25,061 bases of DNA from an archaeon (GTDB lineage: Archaea > Asgardarchaeota > Thorarchaeia > Thorarchaeales > Thorarchaeaceae). This document shows, piece by piece, positions 6,421-13,646 of this stretch. Where the stretch lies: assembly GCA_024275415.1 (NCBI GenBank), contig JAJRZD010000118.1, forward strand, positions 1-25,061. Reading direction: 5' to 3'. The position numbers and the translations under genes are program-made. Each line of letters begins with the position of its first letter. Positions within the stretch are counted from its first letter, which is position 1. The notes below the pieces were generated by a model. That model was given only the letters and a program-made list of their open reading frames with translations, did not search any database and was not told the origin of the DNA.

Positions 6421-6428
6421 GGATGTGA
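6421..6428 (+). promoter_or_regulatory. probable Shine-Dalgarno (GGATGTGA) for a CTG start of metF
   Basis: One mismatch to GGAGGTGA, 6 nt before in-frame CTG 6435. This matches the spacing at 9942 and 17437. Confidence 0.5.
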
Positions 6429-6434
6429 CAGGAT

Positions 6435-7364
6435 CTGTTTCGCTCTCACCTTGAATCGCTCCTCAATAAGGGTCAATTCGTCGTCACAGCTGAGATACGC
6501 CCTCCCAAGGGGAGTGATACCTCAATACTCATTGACCGGATCCGGACTGTACGGGGTTATTGTGATGCGATTAACATAACCGACAACGCCCGAGGCATTC
6601 CACTGATGAGCAGTGTGATTTGCTCACATTATGTCATCAAGGAAGGGTGCGAACCAGTTATGCAGATTACTTCACGCGACCGCAACAGGATCATGCTGCA
6701 GAGTGATCTCTATGGTGCATACGCCTTGGGGGTCAGGAACGTACTGTTCATACAGGGGGATCTCCCATCTTTTGGCACTCACCCGGATGCAACAGCCGTG
6801 TACGATTTGGACTCGCCCGGAACAGTTGCGTTGGCAAACAGGCTTCGGTCAGGTTATGACATGGCTGGCGACGAGTTAGAAGGAACTCCCTCGTTCTTTG
6901 TTGGCGCCACTTTCGATCCAAATGATCTCTCAGAAAAGCAACTTGTTCACCTGAAACGCAAAATAGATGCCGGTGCGCGATTCTTTCAAACGCAAGCGGT
7001 CTTTGACGTGTCCGCGTTGCAGGAATTCATGAAACGGATCGTGGAAACCAGAGTCAAGACCATAGTTGGTATAATACCCTTGAGAACCCCGGAGATTGCT
7101 GAATTCATGGATACGAAGGTTCCTGGCATAACAGTCCCCACAGAGATGATTGACCGTTTGAAGAAGGCTGGTGAGGGGCTTCCAGAAGAGAAGATGCTTG
7201 AAGCCTTCGAACATGAAGGGATACAGATGGCTCTCGAACTAATCGAAGATATTAAGAGAGTCCCTGGAGTGTCTGGAATCCATCTCATGGGTGTCGGTTG
7301 GACTGAAAGCATCCCAGTGCTTGTACAGGAAGCCGATCTACACCCCAGACCATCCCGAGGTTAG
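6435..7364 (+). CDS. metF: 5,10-methylenetetrahydrofolate reductase (MetF family); start is upstream of the ORF-track ATG 6606
   Basis: The frame of 6606 stays open back to TGA 6426-6428 and encodes the typical N-terminus (L)FRSHLESLLNKGQFVVTAEIRPPKG...DAINITDNARG. Core motifs: EPVMQITSRDRNRIMLQSDL, GVRNVLFIQGD, KIDAGARFFQTQAVFD, GIHLM. Confidence 0.88.
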   Translation: MFRSHLESLLNKGQFVVTAEIRPPKGSDTSILIDRIRTVRGYCDAINITDNARGIPLMSSVICSHYVIKEGCEPVMQITSRDRNRIMLQSDLYGAYALGVRNVLFIQGDLPSFGTHPDATAVYDLDSPGTVALANRLRSGYDMAGDELEGTPSFFVGATFDPNDLSEKQLVHLKRKIDAGARFFQTQAVFDVSALQEFMKRIVETRVKTIVGIIPLRTPEIAEFMDTKVPGITVPTEMIDRLKKAGEGLPEEKMLEAFEHEGIQMALELIEDIKRVPGVSGIHLMGVGWTESIPVLVQEADLHPRPSRG

Positions 7365-7368
7365 CGAT

Positions 7369-8286
7369 GTGTTCGTGTTCAAAACGAAACAGCAGAAATT
7401 CGAATTTGGTGGGATCTCTTTCGGAGGCGCATCCGGTGAGAGTCCCACTGTTCTAGTTGGAGGACTTTTCTTCAAGGGCCAAGAGATTGTGGTTGATACC
7501 AAGTCGGGACGTTTCGATAAGGAAATCGCCAAAGAATGGATATCACTAGCAGAAGCCTCCTCCGAACAGACCGGCCATCCACTAATCCTGCAAATATACG
7601 GTCGAATGCCCGATGCCATGGAATCGCACATACCTTGGATCGTTGAGAATTATGATGGTCCGTTCATGATAGAGTCGATAAATGCGCGCGCACGAATTCG
7701 GGCGGTTCAGTTATGTGAGGAACTTGGACTAAAAAACCGGGCTATCTTCAATGCTGTCAACCTATCTCTCACAGAGGACGAGAAGAATGCTCTCCGCGCA
7801 TCATCACTTGAAATGGCTGTGGCGCTAGGCTGGTCACCCCGTACCACTTCTCTGCCAGAACGAATGACCGTGATTAAGCAAGTTCTGGATTTGGTCGCCG
7901 AGCTTGGCTTCAAGTATAAACTGGTGGATCCTGCGACTATGCCCGTTGGTGCAGGCTTCGGGCTGGACTATCGATCCATCCCCGCTATAAAATCGGAGTT
8001 GGGATTACCTACTTGTGCGGGTGCTCACAATGCGCCTTCTGCATGGAAATTCCTCAAGCAGCAAGGATTCAATAAAGAATCGACACACCTGTCTGCAATC
8101 ATTGCTTCAACAGTAGCTGCCCAGATATTTGGAGCCGATTGCATAATGTTTGGTTCGTTGCGTAGGAGCAAAGAGGTTTTCCTCGCGGTGTCTCTCGTAG
8201 CAAATGCGATATACACGGGCCTTGGTGAATCCTATCGTGCGCTCGGGATAGCACAAGATCTCTTCGAACCGCCGACCATCGAATAG
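7369..8286 (+). CDS. mtrH: MtrH-family pterin-binding methyltransferase, divergent copy 1
   Basis: GTG 7369 with GAGGTTA 5 nt upstream gives MFVFKTKQQKFEFGGISFGG..GE.PTVLVGGLFFKGQEIV, an MtrH-like N-terminus. GAHNAPSAW and GADCIMFG motifs are present. Confidence 0.85.
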   Translation: MFVFKTKQQKFEFGGISFGGASGESPTVLVGGLFFKGQEIVVDTKSGRFDKEIAKEWISLAEASSEQTGHPLILQIYGRMPDAMESHIPWIVENYDGPFMIESINARARIRAVQLCEELGLKNRAIFNAVNLSLTEDEKNALRASSLEMAVALGWSPRTTSLPERMTVIKQVLDLVAELGFKYKLVDPATMPVGAGFGLDYRSIPAIKSELGLPTCAGAHNAPSAWKFLKQQGFNKESTHLSAIIASTVAAQIFGADCIMFGSLRRSKEVFLAVSLVANAIYTGLGESYRALGIAQDLFEPPTIE

Positions 8287-8297
8287 GAGGGTTGTTC

Positions 8298-8990
8298 ATG
8301 AATCAGATCATTCGAGAAGACTGGCCTCCAGTTCCAGGTGATTTTGAGGTTGGGGATTTGACCTCCGCTGTTGCCATCTGCACGCTCGGCAAGAGGATTG
8401 CAGTTCCTTGCAAGTATGCAATCATAGGGACATGCAAGACCGAGAACATCGGTATTGAACGGGTAATAGTCAATGTGGTATCCAACCCATTGATCCGATT
8501 CTTCATTCTTGCCGGTCCAGAGGTTCCCGGTCATCATACAGGAGCATCCATTCGAGCATTGTATGATTTCGGAATCGAGTCAGACACACGGCGAATCGTT
8601 GAGGCGCCTGGCGCTATCCCATATATCGAGAATATCCCTGTTGAAGCCGTGGAACGATTTCGGGAACAGGTCGAGTTCATAGACATGATGAATGTGTCTG
8701 ACCCTGCCAAAATTTCAAGTATGGCGGAGGAGCTGAACAAAAGGAACGTTGAGCCATTTCCCGAAGAGATTATCTGGATCGACTTCAAGAGCAAGACGAA
8801 AAAGAAATCCACTGGGGTGATGATAGCATCTGTGTCCGTAGTCCCTGAAATAGGTCTGTTCTACCATCCTGACACATCGCTCATATACTCTCAGACTATG
8901 GATGCCAAGGTTTCGGACAGTCCCACCTCAATAGGGATTGAGATACGCGAAGATGAGGGTGGGACTGTACTGGTCGGCAAGGAGTCGTGA
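8298..8990 (+). CDS. mtrA: MtrA-family corrinoid protein without a C-terminal transmembrane helix (soluble, MtxA-like)
   Basis: DWPPVPGDFEVGD, CKTENIGIERVIVNVVSNP.IRF, EVPGHHTG (cobalt-ligand His) and GAIPYIENIP.EAVERFREQVE. ATG 8298 has AGGAGGG 6 nt upstream. The C-terminal 70 aa are hydrophilic or beta-like. Confidence 0.92.
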   Translation: MNQIIREDWPPVPGDFEVGDLTSAVAICTLGKRIAVPCKYAIIGTCKTENIGIERVIVNVVSNPLIRFFILAGPEVPGHHTGASIRALYDFGIESDTRRIVEAPGAIPYIENIPVEAVERFREQVEFIDMMNVSDPAKISSMAEELNKRNVEPFPEEIIWIDFKSKTKKKSTGVMIASVSVVPEIGLFYHPDTSLIYSQTMDAKVSDSPTSIGIEIREDEGGTVLVGKES

Positions 8991-8995
8991 TTACA

Positions 8996-9931
8996 GTGTT
9001 CATATTCCAAAAAGAGCAAGTGATACACCAAATAGGCGGCGTCAAGATTGGAGGGAATCTAGGAGAGATCCCTACCGTCTTGGCTGGAAGCATATTCTAC
9101 AACGGACACAAGATAGTTTCTGACCCGAACAGTGGCGAGTTTGATAGGTCTAAAGCTGAAACTCTGATTACATTACAGGATGAAATGTCAGAAACCACCG
9201 GGAACCCGTGTATGATTCAGATAGTGGCTGAAGCAGAGGCTGCTATGCAGAAGTACATTGATTTCGCTTCTGAGATTTCCGAAGCTCCCCTAATAATTGA
9301 TTCTACGAGTTCTGATGTCCGAATCTCAGGTCTACATCATGCCGAGGAAGTAGGACTGATTGATAGGATTATCTACAACTCGCTTAATGTGTCTGCAACA
9401 AAAGAGGAGATTGACTCTCTTAGGGAATTCCAGCATGAATCCGCCATTGTCCTTGCCTTTAACCCTCAAGATCCTTCGATTGCCGGACGGCGAGCAGTTC
9501 TTGATGAGGGCATCATGAATCTTGAAACAGGCCTTCTCCCTCTCAGTGAACAGCTCGGAATAACAAAGCCACTGATTGATACAGCCACGACTGCAATGGG
9601 AGCTGGAGCCGGGTCTTCTGTGGCATTCACCTTCGTGTCGAAGGCAAAATATGGACTACCTACCGGGTCTGGCATACATAATGCGCCCTCATCGTGGTCA
9701 TGGCTTCTCGAGCATAAGAAGAAGAATAAAGATGCCTTCAAGGCATGTGATTATGCCTCAAATCTTGCTGTCCAAATGTTGGGTGGTGACTTTGTCCTGT
9801 ACGGACCTATCAAGAACGCAAGAATCGTCTTTCCCCTTATCGCAATGGCTGATTCTTTCGCAGCTGAATATGCAAACATCGAGTTCGGCATTGATGCCTC
9901 TGAGAATCATCCCTTCAAGCGTCTTTTCTAG
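8996..9931 (+). CDS. mtrH: MtrH-family pterin-binding methyltransferase, canonical-like copy 2
   Basis: MFIFQKEQ..HQIGGVKIGGNLGEIPTVLAGSIFYNGHKIV, IIDST, IYNSLN, LIDTA, GSGIHNAPSSW and GGDFVLYGPI. GTG 8987 (4-nt overlap with mtrA) is the alternative start. Confidence 0.92.
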   Translation: MFIFQKEQVIHQIGGVKIGGNLGEIPTVLAGSIFYNGHKIVSDPNSGEFDRSKAETLITLQDEMSETTGNPCMIQIVAEAEAAMQKYIDFASEISEAPLIIDSTSSDVRISGLHHAEEVGLIDRIIYNSLNVSATKEEIDSLREFQHESAIVLAFNPQDPSIAGRRAVLDEGIMNLETGLLPLSEQLGITKPLIDTATTAMGAGAGSSVAFTFVSKAKYGLPTGSGIHNAPSSWSWLLEHKKKNKDAFKACDYASNLAVQMLGGDFVLYGPIKNARIVFPLIAMADSFAAEYANIEFGIDASENHPFKRLF

Positions 9932-9941
9932 GTGATGCCAT

Positions 9942-11354
9942 TTGGTCAGGCGTTTCAAGGTGGTCAGGCCCCGTTCAGTCGGAGTTACCACGACTCGGAT
10001 GGGCCCGTTCTTTACGGTCGCATCTGTGGAGCTGGGCAATACCACGACAAAATGCATCATCTCGACAACAAACCTGAAAACAGCGGAGATATTCCAGATT
10101 GCAAAGGAAGTACGGTTCACTCGGGATGTCCGACCACCCAAAGCAGGGGAAAGTGTTTTTGGTGAAACCTTAGTTGGAATAGGACTCACCCGCGAATCTG
10201 TGAAGGAGCTTGTGTCTGACATAATCCGGTCTGTCGTCACAACGGCAGGAATGGACATCAGTTTGGATCTACACTTTGCTGTGCGTTCTACGGGTGTCAC
10301 TGCTGGTTTTTCTCATCCCGATGATGTAGGAGAGATGGTGAAAGCGCTTGCAGAAGGCTGTCTTGCAGCCGGTATTCCTCCTCGAAAGATGACCGCATCT
10401 TTATCTCCTGAGAATCTCCCTCCTCAATTCCAAGATTTCACATGGCTGCGCCGAGTTTATTTCGATGGTGCCATCACGAGCAGTCTACCTCCTGCTGACG
10501 CGAATATTGTGGGGAATGAGATGGAGGGCGAGCTGGTGACTGCTGGTATCAAGGGCGCAGCAAAATCGACAGACATCGACTTCAGGAACCCTGTAATGAC
10601 CCTTGATTTTGGAACCACGCTTGCTGGCCGTGTGACCGATGATTCCTTTCCGTACTCTCGGACTATTGGGTCGTTTGTCGGACTGGCCGGTGCAATACCC
10701 GACGCACTTGTTTCAGGATCGCGATTGGTTCCTATCAATAATGCCACGGCCCTTGACATTGGCAACAAAAGTAGAAATCTTTCTGTCGATATTCCCGACT
10801 CGGTCGTGGACGAGGTTCACAGTCTAATTCGAGTGGAGGTACTTGGAAAAGGAATTGACCGCTATGGGACAGTCCCTGTCAATGTTTCTGCAGCTGCTGA
10901 GTCCGAAGTGACCATCATAGGTGTAGATGTGGGACGAAACGGATCTGACTTGCCATTGTTGGAGAAAAAAGGACTAGAGGTCACCAACGAGTTCGGGGCT
11001 GATGGTCTAATCTCAACGATTGATCTGGTACAATCCAGATTGGTTTCACGCTTGGTTTCTGTTGCTGAAGAGAATGGACTAGTCCTCAATGACACCTCGC
11101 TGGGACTGACTGGGCGTGCTATCACAACTGGACGAAAACCACTGCTGGTCGCCACAGACTTATCGACCAGTAGTGGCACAGCATGGGCCACTTCACATCA
11201 ACTCATTTTTGTTGAGGATGGACTTGCCTTTGGAGCTGCTGTGGCTGCCAGATGTATGAACTCGCTCGGGACTCGCCATAACCCAATGGGAGGACGCAAA
11301 GGAAACAAATGCATAATGGGAGCAAGGATGAAACTTCAAAGACTCGACCGATGA
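9942..11354 (+). CDS. methanogenesis marker protein 14 family (DUF2114-like), ASKHA/actin-like ATPase motifs
   Basis: VASVELGNTTTKCI, TRDVRPPK.GE.VFG, LTRESV.ELV.D, DLHF.VRSTGV.AGF, ALA.GCL.AGIPPRKMT and NEMEGEL match marker 14 as recalled. TTG start with AGGTGA 6 nt upstream. Confidence 0.85.
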   Translation: MVRRFKVVRPRSVGVTTTRMGPFFTVASVELGNTTTKCIISTTNLKTAEIFQIAKEVRFTRDVRPPKAGESVFGETLVGIGLTRESVKELVSDIIRSVVTTAGMDISLDLHFAVRSTGVTAGFSHPDDVGEMVKALAEGCLAAGIPPRKMTASLSPENLPPQFQDFTWLRRVYFDGAITSSLPPADANIVGNEMEGELVTAGIKGAAKSTDIDFRNPVMTLDFGTTLAGRVTDDSFPYSRTIGSFVGLAGAIPDALVSGSRLVPINNATALDIGNKSRNLSVDIPDSVVDEVHSLIRVEVLGKGIDRYGTVPVNVSAAAESEVTIIGVDVGRNGSDLPLLEKKGLEVTNEFGADGLISTIDLVQSRLVSRLVSVAEENGLVLNDTSLGLTGRAITTGRKPLLVATDLSTSSGTAWATSHQLIFVEDGLAFGAAVAARCMNSLGTRHNPMGGRKGNKCIMGARMKLQRLDR

Positions 11355-11402
11355 TGTGATAATGAGAAGTGTTTATGTGTCGAGGTTAGCGGTCAAAGGA
11401 CT

Positions 11403-12194
11403 GTGGACACAATGCAAGTTATCCCTATTAGGACGCGACTTATCACAGAGAGCGATGAGTTTCTCGATGTCATTGTTGAAGGAATGAACTCGATTGGTCT
11501 TGGCTTTGAAGACGGGGACATTCTCGGCGTTGCAGAAACGCCTCTAGGCACCACAGAGGGACGGGTTGTACGTCTCGATGCGGTCGAAATCTCTCCAAGG
11601 GCAAGGGAGTTAGCAGAACGGTATGAGATGCATCCTGCAGTGGCTCAGCTCGTCATCAACGAGGCTGATGAGATACTGGGAGGCATCCCCCATGTGTTGC
11701 TCACCATCAAGAACAACACGCTGATGGCGAATGCTGGAGTTGACAAGTCTAATGTCCCTCTTGGTCATGCGTCACTTCTCCCTTCCGATCCAACGCAAAG
11801 CGCAGGACATCTGAGAGAGCTTATTCAGGAGCGATTCGAGAAGAACGTCGGGGTTCTAGTCATTGACAGCAGGACACAGCCCCTAAGATTGGGGAACATA
11901 GGGATGGCGCTAGGCGTTGCCGGATTTCGTCCCGTTGCTGACGACCGAGGACGCAAGGATCTTTTCGGGAACGAGCTGAGGATAACTCGCAGGGCTATTG
12001 CTGACAACCTGTCTTCTGCATGTGTTGCCGTCATGGGCGAGTCTGACGAATCCATTCCAGCAGCTTTGATACGCGATGCGCCAATTGAGATGGTAAATGG
12101 CACATTTGATTCATCTGAGATGTGGATTAGTCCACACGAGTGTATGTATATGGCAATCTTCGAGCAGTGGAAACGCGATTCGACTTCCATCTGA
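11403..12194 (+). CDS. cofE: CofE-family gamma-glutamyl ligase (coenzyme F420-0:L-glutamate ligase-like)
   Basis: DGDILGVAET, ANAGVDKSNV, LLP.DP..SA..LR, IDSRTQPLRLG, KDLFGNELRIT..AIAD.L and VMGE.DE.IP. ATG 11412 is an alternative start. Confidence 0.85.
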   Translation: MDTMQVIPIRTRLITESDEFLDVIVEGMNSIGLGFEDGDILGVAETPLGTTEGRVVRLDAVEISPRARELAERYEMHPAVAQLVINEADEILGGIPHVLLTIKNNTLMANAGVDKSNVPLGHASLLPSDPTQSAGHLRELIQERFEKNVGVLVIDSRTQPLRLGNIGMALGVAGFRPVADDRGRKDLFGNELRITRRAIADNLSSACVAVMGESDESIPAALIRDAPIEMVNGTFDSSEMWISPHECMYMAIFEQWKRDSTSI

Positions 12195-12260: not shown

Positions 12261-13646
12261 ATGGGTCGGTTGAGTAAGACTATCCTTATCGATGCATCTC
12301 AAGCTGGAGCGTCTGGGGACATGATACTCTCCGCGCTTATCGACCTTATTGGTGATGACGAGTCTATCATTCCCGTCGCGGCAAGTCTTCTTATCTACGA
12401 CCCCGCTATCCGTGTAAAGATTCTCCAAGACAGCTCTTATGGTGTCACGGGAAAACGACTGATTGTGACTAAGGACAAGGATGTCCGATTCACTCCTGAT
12501 TCTCTCAATGAGATTCTCAATTCTGTGGCCGAGGAGCTCGAACTCTCGAAAAAAGCGATTGATTTTGCAAAGAAGGCTTTGAGTGAGATAATCGATGCTG
12601 AGTCCCGAGCACACGACACTCCTGTCGAGAAGTTGCATCTGCACGAAACTGGATCCGTTGATACGATCTTGGACATTGTCGGGACTGCGTACCTCCTAGA
12701 AAAGATTGGATATCTCTATGACACACGATTCATCTGCACTCGGATAGCAACGGGAAGCGGGAAGATTCAAACCGAACATGGGCTTCTTGAGGTGCCTGTG
12801 CCCGCAGTTACAGAGATCATTTCAAAACACAATATCCCCGTACACTCAGGCCCCGCACAAACAGAAGTCCTCACACCAACAGGCGCTGCTTTGCTTGCAA
12901 CTCTTGTTGATGAGTTCATTGAAAGCACCGAGAGCTTTATTCCGGAGAAGCAAAGCATCGGGCTAGGTTCTCGTGATTTGGGCGAAACGCCTAATGTCCT
13001 TCGATTTGCAGTAGGAGTTATTGAGAAACCTGAACCTGACGAACAACCACCTGGAACAACCCAGAAGCCACCCGAGAAGAAACAGCCGCCGAAAGTCAAG
13101 GATGAAGCGACAACGAAAAAGCATGAAACACCTGCGACTAAGATGAAACACACGGAGCGGAAAGAGATGTTCGAAGACTGGAACGCGGATGAAGTTGTTG
13201 TGATTGAATCCAACATCGACGACACTGACAGTGAGGTGCTGGGTAATCTCTTCGATGTCTTACTATCTGAGGGATTGGCCTATGATGTCATTATGATCCC
13301 AGCTTATGGGAAAAAGAACCGGCCCTGCTTCTTGGTCAAAGTCATCGCCGCAAAGGCTGGTCTGAAGAGTGTTGCTGAGATAATGATGAAGCAGCTTGGC
13401 ACTATTGGAATCCGATACACCGAATGGAGCCGTTTAAAGGCACACCGTGATACTGTGGTCTGCCGCCTTGAGATTGATGACAAGGAGTTCATGGTTCGTG
13501 TTAAGGTTTCGCGAAGCGCAGATGGCAGCATCATTAACATAAAGCCGGAGATTGACGACATCATCGAGGTGGCAAAGGCAACTGGCATTCCAATTCGTGA
13601 ACTCAAGCCACGAGTCGTTCTGCAGGCACAAGCTATCACCGATTAG
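12261..13646 (+). CDS. larC: nickel-pincer cofactor biosynthesis protein LarC family (full-length, single ORF)
   Basis: GASGDMILSAL, HLHETGSVDTILDIVG, HG..EVPVPAV.EI, EVLTPTGAALL, IGLGSRD, PNVLR, ESNIDD, KKNRP, GTIGIR and KPEIDD. TTG 12270 is a possible alternative start. Confidence 0.88.
   Translation: MGRLSKTILIDASQAGASGDMILSALIDLIGDDESIIPVAASLLIYDPAIRVKILQDSSYGVTGKRLIVTKDKDVRFTPDSLNEILNSVAEELELSKKAIDFAKKALSEIIDAESRAHDTPVEKLHLHETGSVDTILDIVGTAYLLEKIGYLYDTRFICTRIATGSGKIQTEHGLLEVPVPAVTEIISKHNIPVHSGPAQTEVLTPTGAALLATLVDEFIESTESFIPEKQSIGLGSRDLGETPNVLRFAVGVIEKPEPDEQPPGTTQKPPEKKQPPKVKDEATTKKHETPATKMKHTERKEMFEDWNADEVVVIESNIDDTDSEVLGNLFDVLLSEGLAYDVIMIPAYGKKNRPCFLVKVIAAKAGLKSVAEIMMKQLGTIGIRYTEWSRLKAHRDTVVCRLEIDDKEFMVRVKVSRSADGSIINIKPEIDDIIEVAKATGIPIRELKPRVVLQAQAITD

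What the first reader, a model, noticed from the sequence alone, without database searches (positions are those of the whole stretch)
6435..12194. Candidate new system: soluble corrinoid methyl shuttle (metF-mtrH-mtrA-mtrH-marker14-cofE)
Seen in sequence: six co-oriented genes with gaps of 4, 11, 5, 10 and 48 nt, with no mtrE/C/D, mcr or MtaB/MttB-type substrate methyltransferase nearby. Established: MtrH-fold enzymes move methyl groups between a pterin carrier and a cobamide (methanogen MtrH with H4MPT; Desulfitobacterium MtgA and Methylobacterium CmuB with H4folate, the latter working with MetF), and Methanosarcina has a soluble mtxXAH cluster of unclear role. Inference: two different pterin-binding methyltransferases around one soluble corrinoid protein fit a transmethylase linking two C1 carriers (CH3-H4MPT <-> Co <-> CH3-H4folate). 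MetF would work the folate side, marker 14 would maintain the corrinoid and CofE would tail a cofactor. This would bridge the H4MPT and H4folate Wood-Ljungdahl branches without Na+ pumping. The alternative is that copy 1 accepts an unknown methylated substrate for methylotrophic growth.
Basis: partly seen in the sequence, partly recalled or inferred. Interest (0 to 1): 0.88.

Follow-up and report, generated by a model that had tools for sequence, protein, structure and literature searches.

The report
Soluble Mtr-derived methyl-transfer operon, Thorarchaeota
A Thorarchaeota (Asgard) genome carries a membrane-free remnant of the methanogens' vitamin-B12 methyl-transfer machine, with two different methyltransferases around one cobalt carrier protein; the gene set is real and partly published, and its proposed job of passing methyl groups between folate and methanopterin is possible here but not shown.

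Summary
Six co-oriented genes lie at 6435-12194 with gaps of 4, 11, 5, 10 and 48 nt: MetF, a diverged MtrH (H1), soluble MtrA, canonical MtrH (H2), methanogenesis marker 14 (DUF2114) and a CofE paralog.

The host is a Thorarchaeota MAG. MetF-H1-MtrA-H2 is kept in the 19 of 20 related loci that carry MetF, and DUF2114 follows wherever the contig reaches. CofE-LarC behaves as a separate block.

H1 is a paralog found only in Thorarchaeota and one other Asgard genome. It keeps a pterin pocket but always has Asp103Glu and Thr32Gly, and it lacks the Lys242/Lys243 tail patch. H2 is an MtrH equivalog.

The genome has H4MPT genes (RFAP synthase, Ftr, Mch, Mtd, CdhDE) and folate genes (Fhs, FolD, this sole MetF). 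Mer, AcsE, MtrE, McrA and MetE were not found. The CH3-H4folate/CH3-H4MPT shuttle therefore passes its genomic prerequisites, but carrier specificity is untested. A MetV-MetF-Mer operon in another Asgard genome points the other way.

Adam et al. 2022 already reported Thorarchaeia MtrAH plus m26, and this scan has met the same operon in at least five other genomes. I rate it a new variant of a known kind.

The parts
6435..7364 (+). metF: methylene-pterin (tetrahydrofolate-type) reductase with a CTG start. It is the only MTHFR gene in the genome.
   Evidence: PF02219 at 121 bits. The best NCBIfam match is the MTHFR half of PRK08645, at 219 bits. The CTG start aligns with CTG, TTG or ATG starts of orthologs, with stop codons upstream. 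The genome has a single match. A gene caller recorded only the 252-aa form starting at ATG 6606 (P0151).
7369..8286 (+). mtrH1: a diverged MtrH paralog found only in Thorarchaeota and one other Asgard genome.
   Evidence: PF02007 at 222 bits. It fails TIGR01114 (220 bits against a cut-off of 271) and the MtgA model (127 against 550). Orthologs above 46% identity occur only in family f1 and in G033, out of 400 Asgard genomes. Only one full-length cluster above 50% identity exists among 1.84 billion representatives. The clade has 100% support, sits on a long stem, and lies inside the canonical-MtrH clade. G32, F35, Q38 and E103 are invariant, N129, D196, H229 and N230 are kept, and the K242/K243 patch is lost.
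8298..8990 (+). mtrA: a soluble corrinoid protein. It is the only MtrA in the genome. Its C-terminal tail has no membrane helix and carries conserved strand-like motifs.
   Evidence: PF04208 at 174 bits. Residues 8-167 align with the MtrA cytoplasmic domains of 8Q3V and 5LAA at 144 bits, including the GH..TG histidine motif. The genome has a single copy. The highest 19-residue hydropathy is 1.55 and lies in the core, not the tail. The tail has an invariant Pro-Glu motif. Three of 10 ortholog tails give weak hits to the N-terminus of Pfam MtrB, at E 0.02-0.08.
8996..9931 (+). mtrH2: a canonical MtrH (methyl-H4MPT:cob(I)amide methyltransferase type).
   Evidence: PF02007 at 372 bits. TIGR01114 equivalog at 381 bits against a cut-off of 271. 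252 bits to M. mazei MtrH 9QTP. It groups with methanogen MtrH in the tree. It keeps T32, Y35, Q75, D103, N129, D196, H229, N230, K242 and K243.
9942..11354 (+). Methanogenesis marker 14 (DUF2114, m26): an ASKHA-fold protein and a candidate ATP-dependent helper or reactivase of the MtrA cobamide.
   Evidence: PF09887 at 589 bits. TIGR03285 at 575 bits against a cut-off of 274. The AF2 model has pLDDT 81.7. Foldseek finds ASKHA kinases and Kae1, with RACo only at rank 32 and TM 0.36. ASKHA phosphate motifs and four invariant Cys are present. It follows mtrH2 in all 18 loci whose contig reaches it. The published link to Mtr is in PMC9635834.
11403..12194 (+). CofE-family gamma-glutamyl ligase paralog. 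It is a neighbour that is only loosely tied to the module.
   Evidence: PF01996 at 226 bits. TIGR01916 at 189 bits against a cut-off of 181, and TIGR04132 at 104 bits. A more canonical CofE lies on C116 at 255 bits. It moves together with LarC as a block, being inverted in G019 and separated by a 2.5-kb insertion in G020.
12261..13646 (+). LarC-like nickel insertion protein. It is a co-oriented neighbour and probably not part of the module.
   Evidence: PF01969 at 325 bits. It matches the LarC1 and LarC2 models. It stays with CofE in the rearranged loci.

Best explanation
This is a cytoplasmic, Mtr-derived corrinoid methyltransferase operon of Thorarchaeota.

Shown:
- A soluble MtrA cobamide protein is encoded between two MtrH-family pterin methyltransferases.
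- Both methyltransferases are under equally strong purifying selection.
- H2 is a canonical methyl-H4MPT enzyme. H1 is a lineage-specific paralog with a retained but remodelled pterin pocket.

Inferred:
- MetF reduces methylene-H4folate, which comes from the Fhs/FolD branch, to methyl-H4folate.
- H1 passes that methyl group to Co(I) on MtrA. H2 passes it on to H4MPT.
- Methyl-H4MPT then feeds the archaeal CODH/ACS (CdhDE). The whole route may also run in reverse.
- In this genus the route would replace the missing Mer step, and it would stand in for the AcsE that the folate branch lacks.
- The MtrA tail, which carries an MtrB-like Pro-Glu strand motif in place of the membrane anchor, probably docks on an H1/H2 dimer.
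- Marker 14, an ASKHA-fold protein, probably returns inactive Co(II) to Co(I) at the expense of ATP.
- No Na+ is pumped, because the membrane subunits are missing.
For: - Gene identities and tight spacing are confirmed.
- MetF-H1-MtrA-H2 is kept in the 19 loci that carry MetF, and H1-MtrA-H2 in all 20, from 16 genera; DUF2114 follows in the 18 loci whose contig reaches it. Insertions and an inversion lie around this core but never inside it.
- An H1-A-H2 triad also occurs in a second Asgard family.
- H1 and H2 are conserved alike, at 73% and 71% mean column identity. H1 keeps Q75, N129, D196, H229 and N230, so it still looks like a ligand-binding enzyme.
- H1 differs from H2 at exactly the pocket and tail positions defined in the MtgA and M. 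mazei MtrH structures: T32G, Y35F, H38Q, D103E and loss of K242/K243 (PMC7154762; PMC12774963).
- The genome holds both carrier systems. The H4MPT side has RFAP synthase, Ftr, Mch, Mtd and CdhDE. The folate side has adjacent Fhs and FolD.
- Fhs occurs in 24 of 24 Thorarchaeota relatives but in only 2 of 16 other Asgard genomes.
- This MetF is the only one in the genome.
- Mer above its cut-off is missing from all 7 genomes of this genus.
- The only strong Pterin_bind gene is a DHPS next to MptE; one further weak hit (29 bits, contig C93) was not examined, and no AcsE-type gene was recognised.
- MetE was not found. Methyl-H4folate would therefore have no other known consumer.
- MetF lies next to H1, not next to H2.
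- In 12 of 24 relatives an acetogen-type MetV precedes MetF.
Against: - No result shows which pterin H1 binds.
- H1 branches within the canonical-MtrH clade. It scores higher to methanogen MtrH (183 bits) than to the folate enzyme MtgA (124 bits).
- Its changed residues do not converge on those of MtgA.
- H1 has lost the basic patch that corresponds to MtgA Arg236, which binds the glutamate tail of folate.
- FolC was not found in this genome or in 40 relatives, so folate synthesis itself is not demonstrated.
- In G031, which lacks Fhs and FolD, MetV-MetF-Mer form one operon. This suggests that Asgard MetVF works on the H4MPT route.
- 13 of 24 Thorarchaeota relatives have Mer as well as the operon, so the operon is not simply a replacement for Mer.
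- G019 keeps H1-A-H2-marker 14 but has neither MetF nor Mer.
- A RACo-type activase is encoded elsewhere in the genome, so marker 14 need not be the reactivase.
Confidence: 0.35

Rival explanations
1. MetF replaces Mer, and the module is a branch point. MetF (with MetV where present) reduces methylene-H4MPT. H2 loads the methyl group from methyl-H4MPT onto MtrA. H1 then hands it to some acceptor other than folate, or takes it from some other donor. The module is thus a remnant of Mtr that works on a single C1 carrier.
For: - A MetV-MetF-Mer operon exists in an Asgard genome without Fhs or FolD.
- MetVF also lies near Mer in G036 and G030.
- Mer is missing in this genus while MetF is present.
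- Fhs and FolD occur without MetF in other Asgard families, so the folate pair does not need MetF.
- Both MtrH copies are closer to methanogen MtrH than to MtgA.
Against: - H1's acceptor would be unknown. No MtrE, McrA, ComA or MetE was found.
- H1 keeps a pterin-type pocket.
- 13 relatives have both Mer and the operon.
- MetF belongs to the MTHFR family, and no member of that family is known to me to use H4MPT (own knowledge).
Confidence: 0.25
2. Methylotrophy. H1 acts as the substrate-specific methyltransferase that strips a methyl group from an unknown methylated compound onto MtrA. H2 passes it to H4MPT for oxidation or acetyl-CoA synthesis. This would be analogous to the three-component MtgB/MtgC/MtgA or O-demethylase systems. 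It is the reader's stated alternative and the common reading in the literature for MtrAH outside methanogens.
For: - Published proposals exist for MtrAH in non-methanogens (PMC9635834; PMC8407382).
- G019 keeps H1-A-H2-marker 14 without MetF or Mer.
- H1 has lost the basic tail patch and has a widened pocket, with G32.
- The genome holds other corrinoid proteins, a URO-D type methyltransferase and a RACo activase, so it already invests in methyl-transfer chemistry.
Against: - Known substrate methyltransferases belong to other families (MtaB, MttB/MtgB, MtvB). No MtrH-family member is known to me to use a non-pterin substrate (own knowledge).
- H1 keeps the Asn, Asp and His-Asn pterin ligands invariant.
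- MetF-H1 adjacency is kept in 19 of 20 loci.
Confidence: 0.15
3. H1 is a structural half of an asymmetric heterodimer. It no longer turns over substrate. It pairs with H2 and provides the docking site for the MtrA tail, replacing the MtrB stalk. The methyl group on MtrA would go to a partner encoded elsewhere.
For: - MtrH and MtgA are dimers.
- The two MtrH residues that bind MtrB in M. mazei are split between the paralogs. H1 keeps Arg211 but has Lys5. H2 keeps an acidic residue 5 but lacks Arg211.
- The MtrA tail has an invariant Pro-Glu that matches the position of Glu9 in MtrB, and it gives weak hits to the MtrB profile.
- The catalytic Asp is changed to Glu in all H1 sequences, and D102A kills MtgA.
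Against: - Asp to Glu keeps the carboxylate.
- All other pocket residues are invariant across 21 orthologs that share only about 55-60% identity overall. This argues for a working site.
Confidence: 0.1

Closest known systems
Thorarchaeia 'canonical MtrAH' plus marker m26 (DUF2114), described as methanogenesis remnants by Adam et al. 2022 (PMC9635834)
   Same: It is the same lineage and the same genes: soluble MtrA, canonical MtrH and DUF2114, linked by distribution, phylogeny and synteny.
   Different: The text and supplement that I could search do not mention MetF, the second diverged MtrH paralog or the MtrA tail (one search found no 'MetF'). The function is left as a generic methyltransferase in a mixotrophic lifestyle.
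Energy-conserving Mtr complex (MtrABCDEFGH) of methanogens (structures 8Q3V, 9QTP/9QTS)
   Same: The MtrA corrinoid domain, with its His motif, and H2 are close homologs. H2 passes the equivalog cut-off. Marker 14 accompanies Mtr in methanogens as well.
   Different: There are no membrane subunits, since MtrE was not found. MtrA has no membrane anchor. No Mcr or ComA was found. A second MtrH paralog takes the place where MtrE would take the methyl group. Na+ pumping is not possible.
Three-component corrinoid methyltransferase systems such as MtgB/MtgC/MtgA of Desulfitobacterium hafniense
   Same: The logic is a loading methyltransferase, a corrinoid protein and an unloading methyltransferase. 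MtgA is an MtrH-family TIM-barrel dimer that methylates H4folate from methylcobalamin.
   Different: The corrinoid protein here is of MtrA type, not the B12-binding (PF02310) type. Both methyltransferases are of the MtrH family. Neither reaches the MtgA model cut-off (127 and 200 bits against 550).
Soluble MtrAH of other non-methanogenic or methyl-reducing lineages (Methanomassiliicoccales 'MALP', Sifarchaeia/Jordarchaeia, the Atabeyarchaeia/Freyarchaeia MtrAH fusion, Bathyarchaeia)
   Same: These are membrane-free MtrA plus MtrH. They are proposed to link a pterin carrier (H4MPT or H4folate) with another methyl pool.
   Different: Those systems have one MtrH, or an MtrA-MtrH fusion. CoM is proposed as the partner. 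None is described with two different MtrH paralogs flanking MtrA, or with MetF in the operon.
Cobalamin-dependent methionine synthase MetH (functional analogy only)
   Same: It combines a pterin methyltransferase module, a cobalamin carrier, a second methyltransferase module and a reactivation module.
   Different: There is no homology of the parts. The Pterin_bind family is absent here except for a DHPS. The second acceptor here is probably a pterin, not homocysteine.

Membership tests
Mtr complex (N5-methyl-H4MPT:CoM methyltransferase, MtrA-H) | MtrH subunit at equivalog level | tested here: met
   H2 scores 381 bits against TIGR01114 (cut-off 271). It keeps the pocket residues named for M. 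mazei MtrH.
Mtr complex (N5-methyl-H4MPT:CoM methyltransferase, MtrA-H) | MtrA with a corrinoid-binding cytoplasmic domain and a C-terminal membrane helix | tested here: not met
   The domain is present. The TIGR01111 equivalog is failed (165 bits against 249). The tail has no hydrophobic segment.
Mtr complex (N5-methyl-H4MPT:CoM methyltransferase, MtrA-H) | Membrane subunits MtrB-G, including the CoM-methylating MtrE | tested here: not met
   PF04206 (MtrE) was not found in the 92.9%-complete genome. No such genes lie in the window.
Mtr complex (N5-methyl-H4MPT:CoM methyltransferase, MtrA-H) | Works with CoM and Mcr | tested here: not met
   McrA was not found in 26 genomes, including this one. 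ComA was not found, although other CoM pathways were not searched.
MtrH family (PF02007) | Pfam gathering score, TIM-barrel pterin ligands | tested here: met
   H1 scores 222 bits and H2 372 bits, against a cut-off of 22.8. H1 fails the narrower TIGR01114 and NF002142 models.
MtgA (methylcorrinoid:tetrahydrofolate methyltransferase) | NCBIfam NF047990 equivalog cut-off of 550 bits; MtgA pocket residues Ser32, Asp75, Asp102, Ser226 and Arg236 | tested here: not met
   H1 scores 127 bits and H2 200 bits. H1 has G32, Q75, E103 and H229 and has no basic patch.
Methanogenesis marker 14 (TIGR03285 / DUF2114 / m26) | Model cut-off; neighbourhood with Mtr genes | tested here: met
   It scores 575 bits against a cut-off of 274. 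It lies directly after mtrH2 in all 18 loci whose contig reaches it.
RACo/RamA-type reductive activators of corrinoid enzymes | 2Fe-2S ferredoxin domain, RACo middle domain and RACo ASKHA domain | tested here: not met
   Marker 14 matches only DUF2114 in Pfam. Foldseek places RACo at ranks 32 and 42 with TM 0.31-0.36, among generic ASKHA folds. A true RACo (Fer2, Raco_middle and RACo_C_ter) lies on contig C67 next to a third MtrH.
Acetogen-type MetVF methylene-tetrahydrofolate reductase | MTHFR subunit together with a MetV (PF12225) subunit | tested here: inconclusive
   MetF is present. MetV was not found in this genome or in its genus (0 of 7), but it lies directly upstream of MetF in 12 of 24 Thorarchaeota relatives.
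CofE (F420-0:gamma-glutamyl ligase) | TIGR01916 cut-off; sole F420 ligase of the genome | tested here: inconclusive
   The window copy only just passes (189 bits against 181). The copy on C116 scores 255 bits over the full length. The window copy is the better match to the folate-ligase-like model TIGR04132 (104 bits against 73), though both are far below its cut-off of 350.
Methanosarcina mtxXAH cluster | MtxX together with MtxA and MtxH paralogs | not tested

The most novel reading that the evidence does not exclude
The operon encodes a soluble methyl-H4folate:H4MPT transmethylase, made of H1, MtrA-cobamide and H2 and serviced by marker 14. It would join a bacterial-type folate methyl branch (Fhs, FolD, MetF) to the archaeal H4MPT-dependent CODH/ACS. 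This enzyme activity has not been described. It would also explain how Thorarchaeota can lose Mer.
Probability: 0.35. Interest if true: 0.8.

Novelty: new variant of a known kind. Interest (0 to 1): 0.55.

Why it matters
Soluble MtrAH genes are widespread in archaea that are not methanogens, and nobody knows what they do. The Thorarchaeota version is the most complete small case. It has one corrinoid protein, two clearly different methyltransferase partners, a reductase that makes a methyl-pterin, and the uncharacterised marker 14, all soluble and in one operon.

If H1 and H2 use different pterins, this would be the first enzyme to move methyl groups between the folate and methanopterin C1 pools. 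It would also explain how an Asgard lineage runs a hybrid Wood-Ljungdahl pathway without Mer or AcsE.

Whatever the carriers turn out to be, the operon offers a membrane-free system for testing the function of marker 14, a gene conserved in methanogens that have Mtr.

Tried and rejected
- **Complex prediction.** H1, H2 and MtrA were submitted with alignments A1-A3. The score was 0.15 against a mark of 0.32, so there is no verdict. This is not evidence either way.
- **Sequencing runs.** None was listed for the operon, so there is no information on expression.
- **MtrA tail against the PDB.** Only a chance-level hit was found.
- **Profile of 21 MtrA tails against 5.8 billion proteins.** It returned only two Thorarchaeota MtrA fragments and no MtrB. 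The MtrB likeness therefore rests on three weak Pfam hits.
- **In-frame TGA reported in the Fhs match.** It lies upstream of the Met start and is not a selenocysteine codon.
- **MetF homologs labelled Odin-, Hermod- and Hodarchaeota.** They sit in exactly the same extended synteny as Thorarchaeota loci. They add no independent lineage, and the labels are probably wrong.
- **Protein Atlas search with MetF.** It returned only generic MTHFR clusters and says nothing about the carrier.
- **Complementary pattern between Mer and MetV across Thorarchaeota genera.** All four combinations occur, so there is no such pattern.
- **The idea that the window's CofE paralog is the missing FolC.** There is a precedent in Chlamydia CT611 (PMC1971073). 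FolC was not found in 41 Asgard genomes. However, CofE paralogs of this type also occur in Asgard genomes without the operon, so this is no more than a hint.
- **One mistyped Pfam call.**

Full report
**1.

- MetF: 6435-7364.
- MtrH1: 7369-8286.
- MtrA: 8298-8990.
- MtrH2: 8996-9931.
- DUF2114 (methanogenesis marker 14): 9942-11354.
- A CofE-family ligase: 11403-12194.

These assignments come from Pfam and NCBIfam. The gaps are 4, 11, 5, 10 and 48 nt, and Shine-Dalgarno-like motifs sit in front of the starts. A LarC-like gene follows after 66 nt.

The metF start deserves comment.
- There is no ATG, GTG or TTG between the stop at 6426-6428 and position 6606.
- The MTHFR profile already matches from residue 8 of the stop-to-stop frame.
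- In orthologs the aligned codon is CTG, TTG or ATG. Several have a stop codon one to three codons upstream.
- A CTG start is therefore the best reading. A public gene call kept only the 252-residue form that starts at 6606 (P0151).

**2. Host and conservation**

Related contigs are titled Candidatus Thorarchaeota. The genome is 3.5 Mb in 127 contigs and 92.9% complete.
- MtrA occurs in 24 of 24 genomes of the same family and is single-copy here.
- I fetched 20 loci from 16 genera. H1-MtrA-H2 is intact in all 20, preceded by MetF in 19 and followed by marker 14 in the 18 whose contig reaches it; CofE-LarC lies downstream where the contig continues, at 45-77% amino-acid identity.
- The wider neighbourhood (ABC transporter, archaeosine TGT, HflX on one side, PolB on the other) is syntenic too. 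Conserved order alone is therefore partly inheritance.

The exceptions are more telling.
- A MetV gene, and sometimes solute-binding protein genes, are inserted between HflX and MetF in many genera.
- A 2.5-kb gene is inserted between marker 14 and CofE in G020.
- In G019, CofE-LarC is inverted to the other side and MetF is missing from the genome.
- H1-MtrA-H2-marker 14 is never interrupted. The functional unit is (MetV-)MetF-H1-MtrA-H2-marker 14, and CofE-LarC is a separate block.

Outside the family, only one other Asgard genome (G033, a different family) has an H1-MtrA-H2 triad, on a 3.8-kb contig. Other Asgard genomes with MtrA have MtrA-MtrH fusions or single genes. Contigs labelled Odin-, Hermod- or Hodarchaeota carry the identical extended synteny and add nothing independent.

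**3. The two MtrH copies**

H2 is a canonical MtrH.
- It passes the TIGR01114 equivalog cut-off (381 bits against 271).
- It scores 252 bits to M. mazei MtrH.
- It groups with methanogen MtrH in a tree of 110 family members.

H1 is a diverged paralog.
- It fails the same model (220 bits).
- Its orthologs above 46% identity occur only in Thorarchaeota (about 77 of 85 genomes) and in G033, out of 400 Asgard genomes.
- In a library of 1.84 billion representatives, only one full-length cluster is above 50% identity. The next hits are at 37% or less.
- In the tree the H1 clade has full support and a long stem. It lies inside a supported clade (97) that also holds H2 and canonical MtrH.
- Both copies score higher to methanogen MtrH than to the folate enzyme MtgA.

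I compared the pocket residues using the numbering of the M. mazei MtrH structure paper (PMC12774963) and of the MtgA structures (PMC7154762).
- H2 keeps T32, Y35, Q75, D103, N129, D196, H229 and N230, and also the K242/K243 patch proposed to hold the anionic tail.
- H1 has G32, F35, Q38 and E103 in all 21 sequences. It keeps Q75, N129, D196, H229 and N230 without exception. It has lost K242/K243.
- H1 and H2 are equally conserved among the same genomes (73% and 71% mean column identity).

H1 is thus a maintained, ligand-binding protein with a remodelled pocket and not a decaying copy. The Asp-to-Glu change sits at the residue whose Ala mutant is inactive in MtgA, but it keeps the carboxylate. 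The changes do not converge on the MtgA residues (S32, D75, S226, R236).

**4. MtrA and marker 14**

MtrA:
- Residues 8-167 align with solved MtrA cytoplasmic domains, including the His motif.
- The tail has no hydrophobic helix.
- Across 22 orthologs the tail carries an invariant Pro-Glu within a V.LLPE...DP.TSL motif, and a second conserved strand-like motif at the C-terminus.
- Three of ten ortholog tails give their only Pfam hit, a weak one (E 0.02-0.08), to positions 2-31 of MtrB.
- In M. mazei the MtrB N-terminal strand docks on the MtrH dimer through Arg5-Asp5 and Glu9-Arg211.
- Here H1 keeps Arg211 but has Lys5, while H2 keeps an acidic residue 5 but lacks Arg211.
- This fits a tail that docks on an H1/H2 heterodimer, but it is inference. 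The complex prediction gave no verdict.

Marker 14:
- It passes its NCBIfam model.
- It folds with pLDDT 82 and resembles ASKHA kinases and Kae1. RACo appears only far down the list.
- It has ASKHA phosphate motifs and four invariant cysteines.
- A role in reactivating Co(II) is plausible but untested. A true RACo-type activase is encoded next to a third MtrH on contig C67.

**5. Does the host meet the prerequisites of the two-carrier idea?**

Yes, in this genome.
- H4MPT side: beta-RFAP synthase, Ftr, Mch, Mtd and archaeal CdhD/E.
- Folate side: adjacent Fhs and FolD on contig C83. The only MTHFR in the genome is the one in this operon.
- Fhs is found in 24 of 24 Thorarchaeota relatives but in only 2 of 16 other Asgard genomes sampled.
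- A Mer above the TIGR03555 cut-off is missing from all seven genomes of this genus and from five other genera. It is present in 13 relatives.
- The one strong Pterin_bind gene is a DHPS next to MptE; a second, weak hit (29 bits, contig C93) was not examined, and no AcsE-type gene was recognised.
- MetE, MtrE, McrA and ComA were not found.

In this genus, methyl-H4folate made by MetF would therefore have no known consumer. Methyl-H4MPT would have no known source other than CODH/ACS, unless H1-MtrA-H2 connects the two pools. MetF lies next to H1, not H2, and in half of the relatives it is preceded by MetV. Both facts fit that route.

**6. Evidence on the other side**

- FolC was not found here or in 40 relatives, so folate itself is not demonstrated.
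- A CofE homolog can replace FolC in Chlamydia (PMC1971073). The window's CofE is the less canonical of two copies. However, such paralogs are common in Asgard genomes without the operon.
- In G031, which lacks Fhs and FolD, MetV-MetF-Mer form one tight operon. MetVF also lies near Mer in two other Asgard genomes. This suggests that Asgard MetVF may belong to the H4MPT route.
- Fhs and FolD occur without MetF in other families.
- Thirteen relatives have Mer as well as the operon.
- G019 keeps the core without MetF or Mer.

Taken together, the specific shuttle is the single most likely reading, and I put it at about one in three.

**7. What is known**

- Adam et al. [quoted passage not shown] They also reported that m26, which is DUF2114, is tied to Mtr by distribution, phylogeny and synteny, including in Thorarchaeia.
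- Soluble MtrAH has been discussed for Methanomassiliicoccales (proposed as a methyl-H4folate:CoM enzyme), for Sifarchaeia and Jordarchaeia, for Atabeyarchaeia and Freyarchaeia and for Bathyarchaeia.
- In the papers I could search, I found no mention of the second MtrH paralog, of MetF in the operon or of the MtrA tail.
- This scan has already met the same operon in at least five other genomes, with similar verdicts. One of those reports judged its host to be folate-only. That is not the case for this genome.

**8. Verdict**

This is a real, family-wide, partly published operon, and a new variant of a known kind. Its main value is as a small soluble system in which two questions can be tested directly: what non-methanogen MtrAH does, and what marker 14 does.

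Noticed in passing
window 6423-6440: metF appears to start at a CTG codon (6435). An ATG at 6423 is followed at once by an in-frame TGA. Orthologs have CTG, TTG or ATG at the aligned codon. A public gene call is truncated to 252 residues starting at 6606.
   Followed up: yes
G000 contig C67:16641-20486 (L043:6642-10487): A third MtrH paralog, from a different clade of the family, lies two genes away from a RACo/RamA-type corrinoid activase (Fer2, Raco_middle and RACo_C_ter). This is a separate corrinoid methyl-transfer locus.
   Followed up: partly
L019:6807-7460 and equivalents in 12 of 24 Thorarchaeota relatives: A MetV gene (PF12225) lies directly upstream of MetF in many genera. It is missing from the whole genus of this window, which has MetF alone.
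   Followed up: yes
G031 contig C1 (L052:8112-10931): MetV-MetF-Mer form one tight operon in another Asgard family that lacks Fhs and FolD. This is an unexplained pairing of two methylene-pterin reductases.
   Followed up: partly
genome-wide, genus g1 (G000-G006): No Mer above the TIGR03555 cut-off was found in any of the seven genomes of this genus, although Ftr, Mch and Mtd are present. Mer presence is patchy across Thorarchaeota genera.
   Followed up: partly
window 11403-12194 and G000 contig C116:5361-6170: The genome has two CofE-family ligases, and the window copy is the less canonical. [quoted passage not shown]
   Followed up: partly
window 9942-11354: Marker 14 has four invariant cysteines across 18 orthologs (positions 18, 120, 418 and 437 of the 450-residue form). 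This may be a metal or cluster site.
   Followed up: no
L060, L062, L064: NCBI MAGs labelled Odinarchaeota, Hermodarchaeota and Hodarchaeota carry the same extended synteny as Thorarchaeota loci. Their taxonomic labels look wrong.
   Followed up: partly
L048:3-593 (G033 contig C86): In the only non-Thorarchaeota triad, an RRXRR-family protein gene follows mtrH2 where marker 14 would be. The contig then ends.
   Followed up: no
I did not examine them.
   Followed up: no
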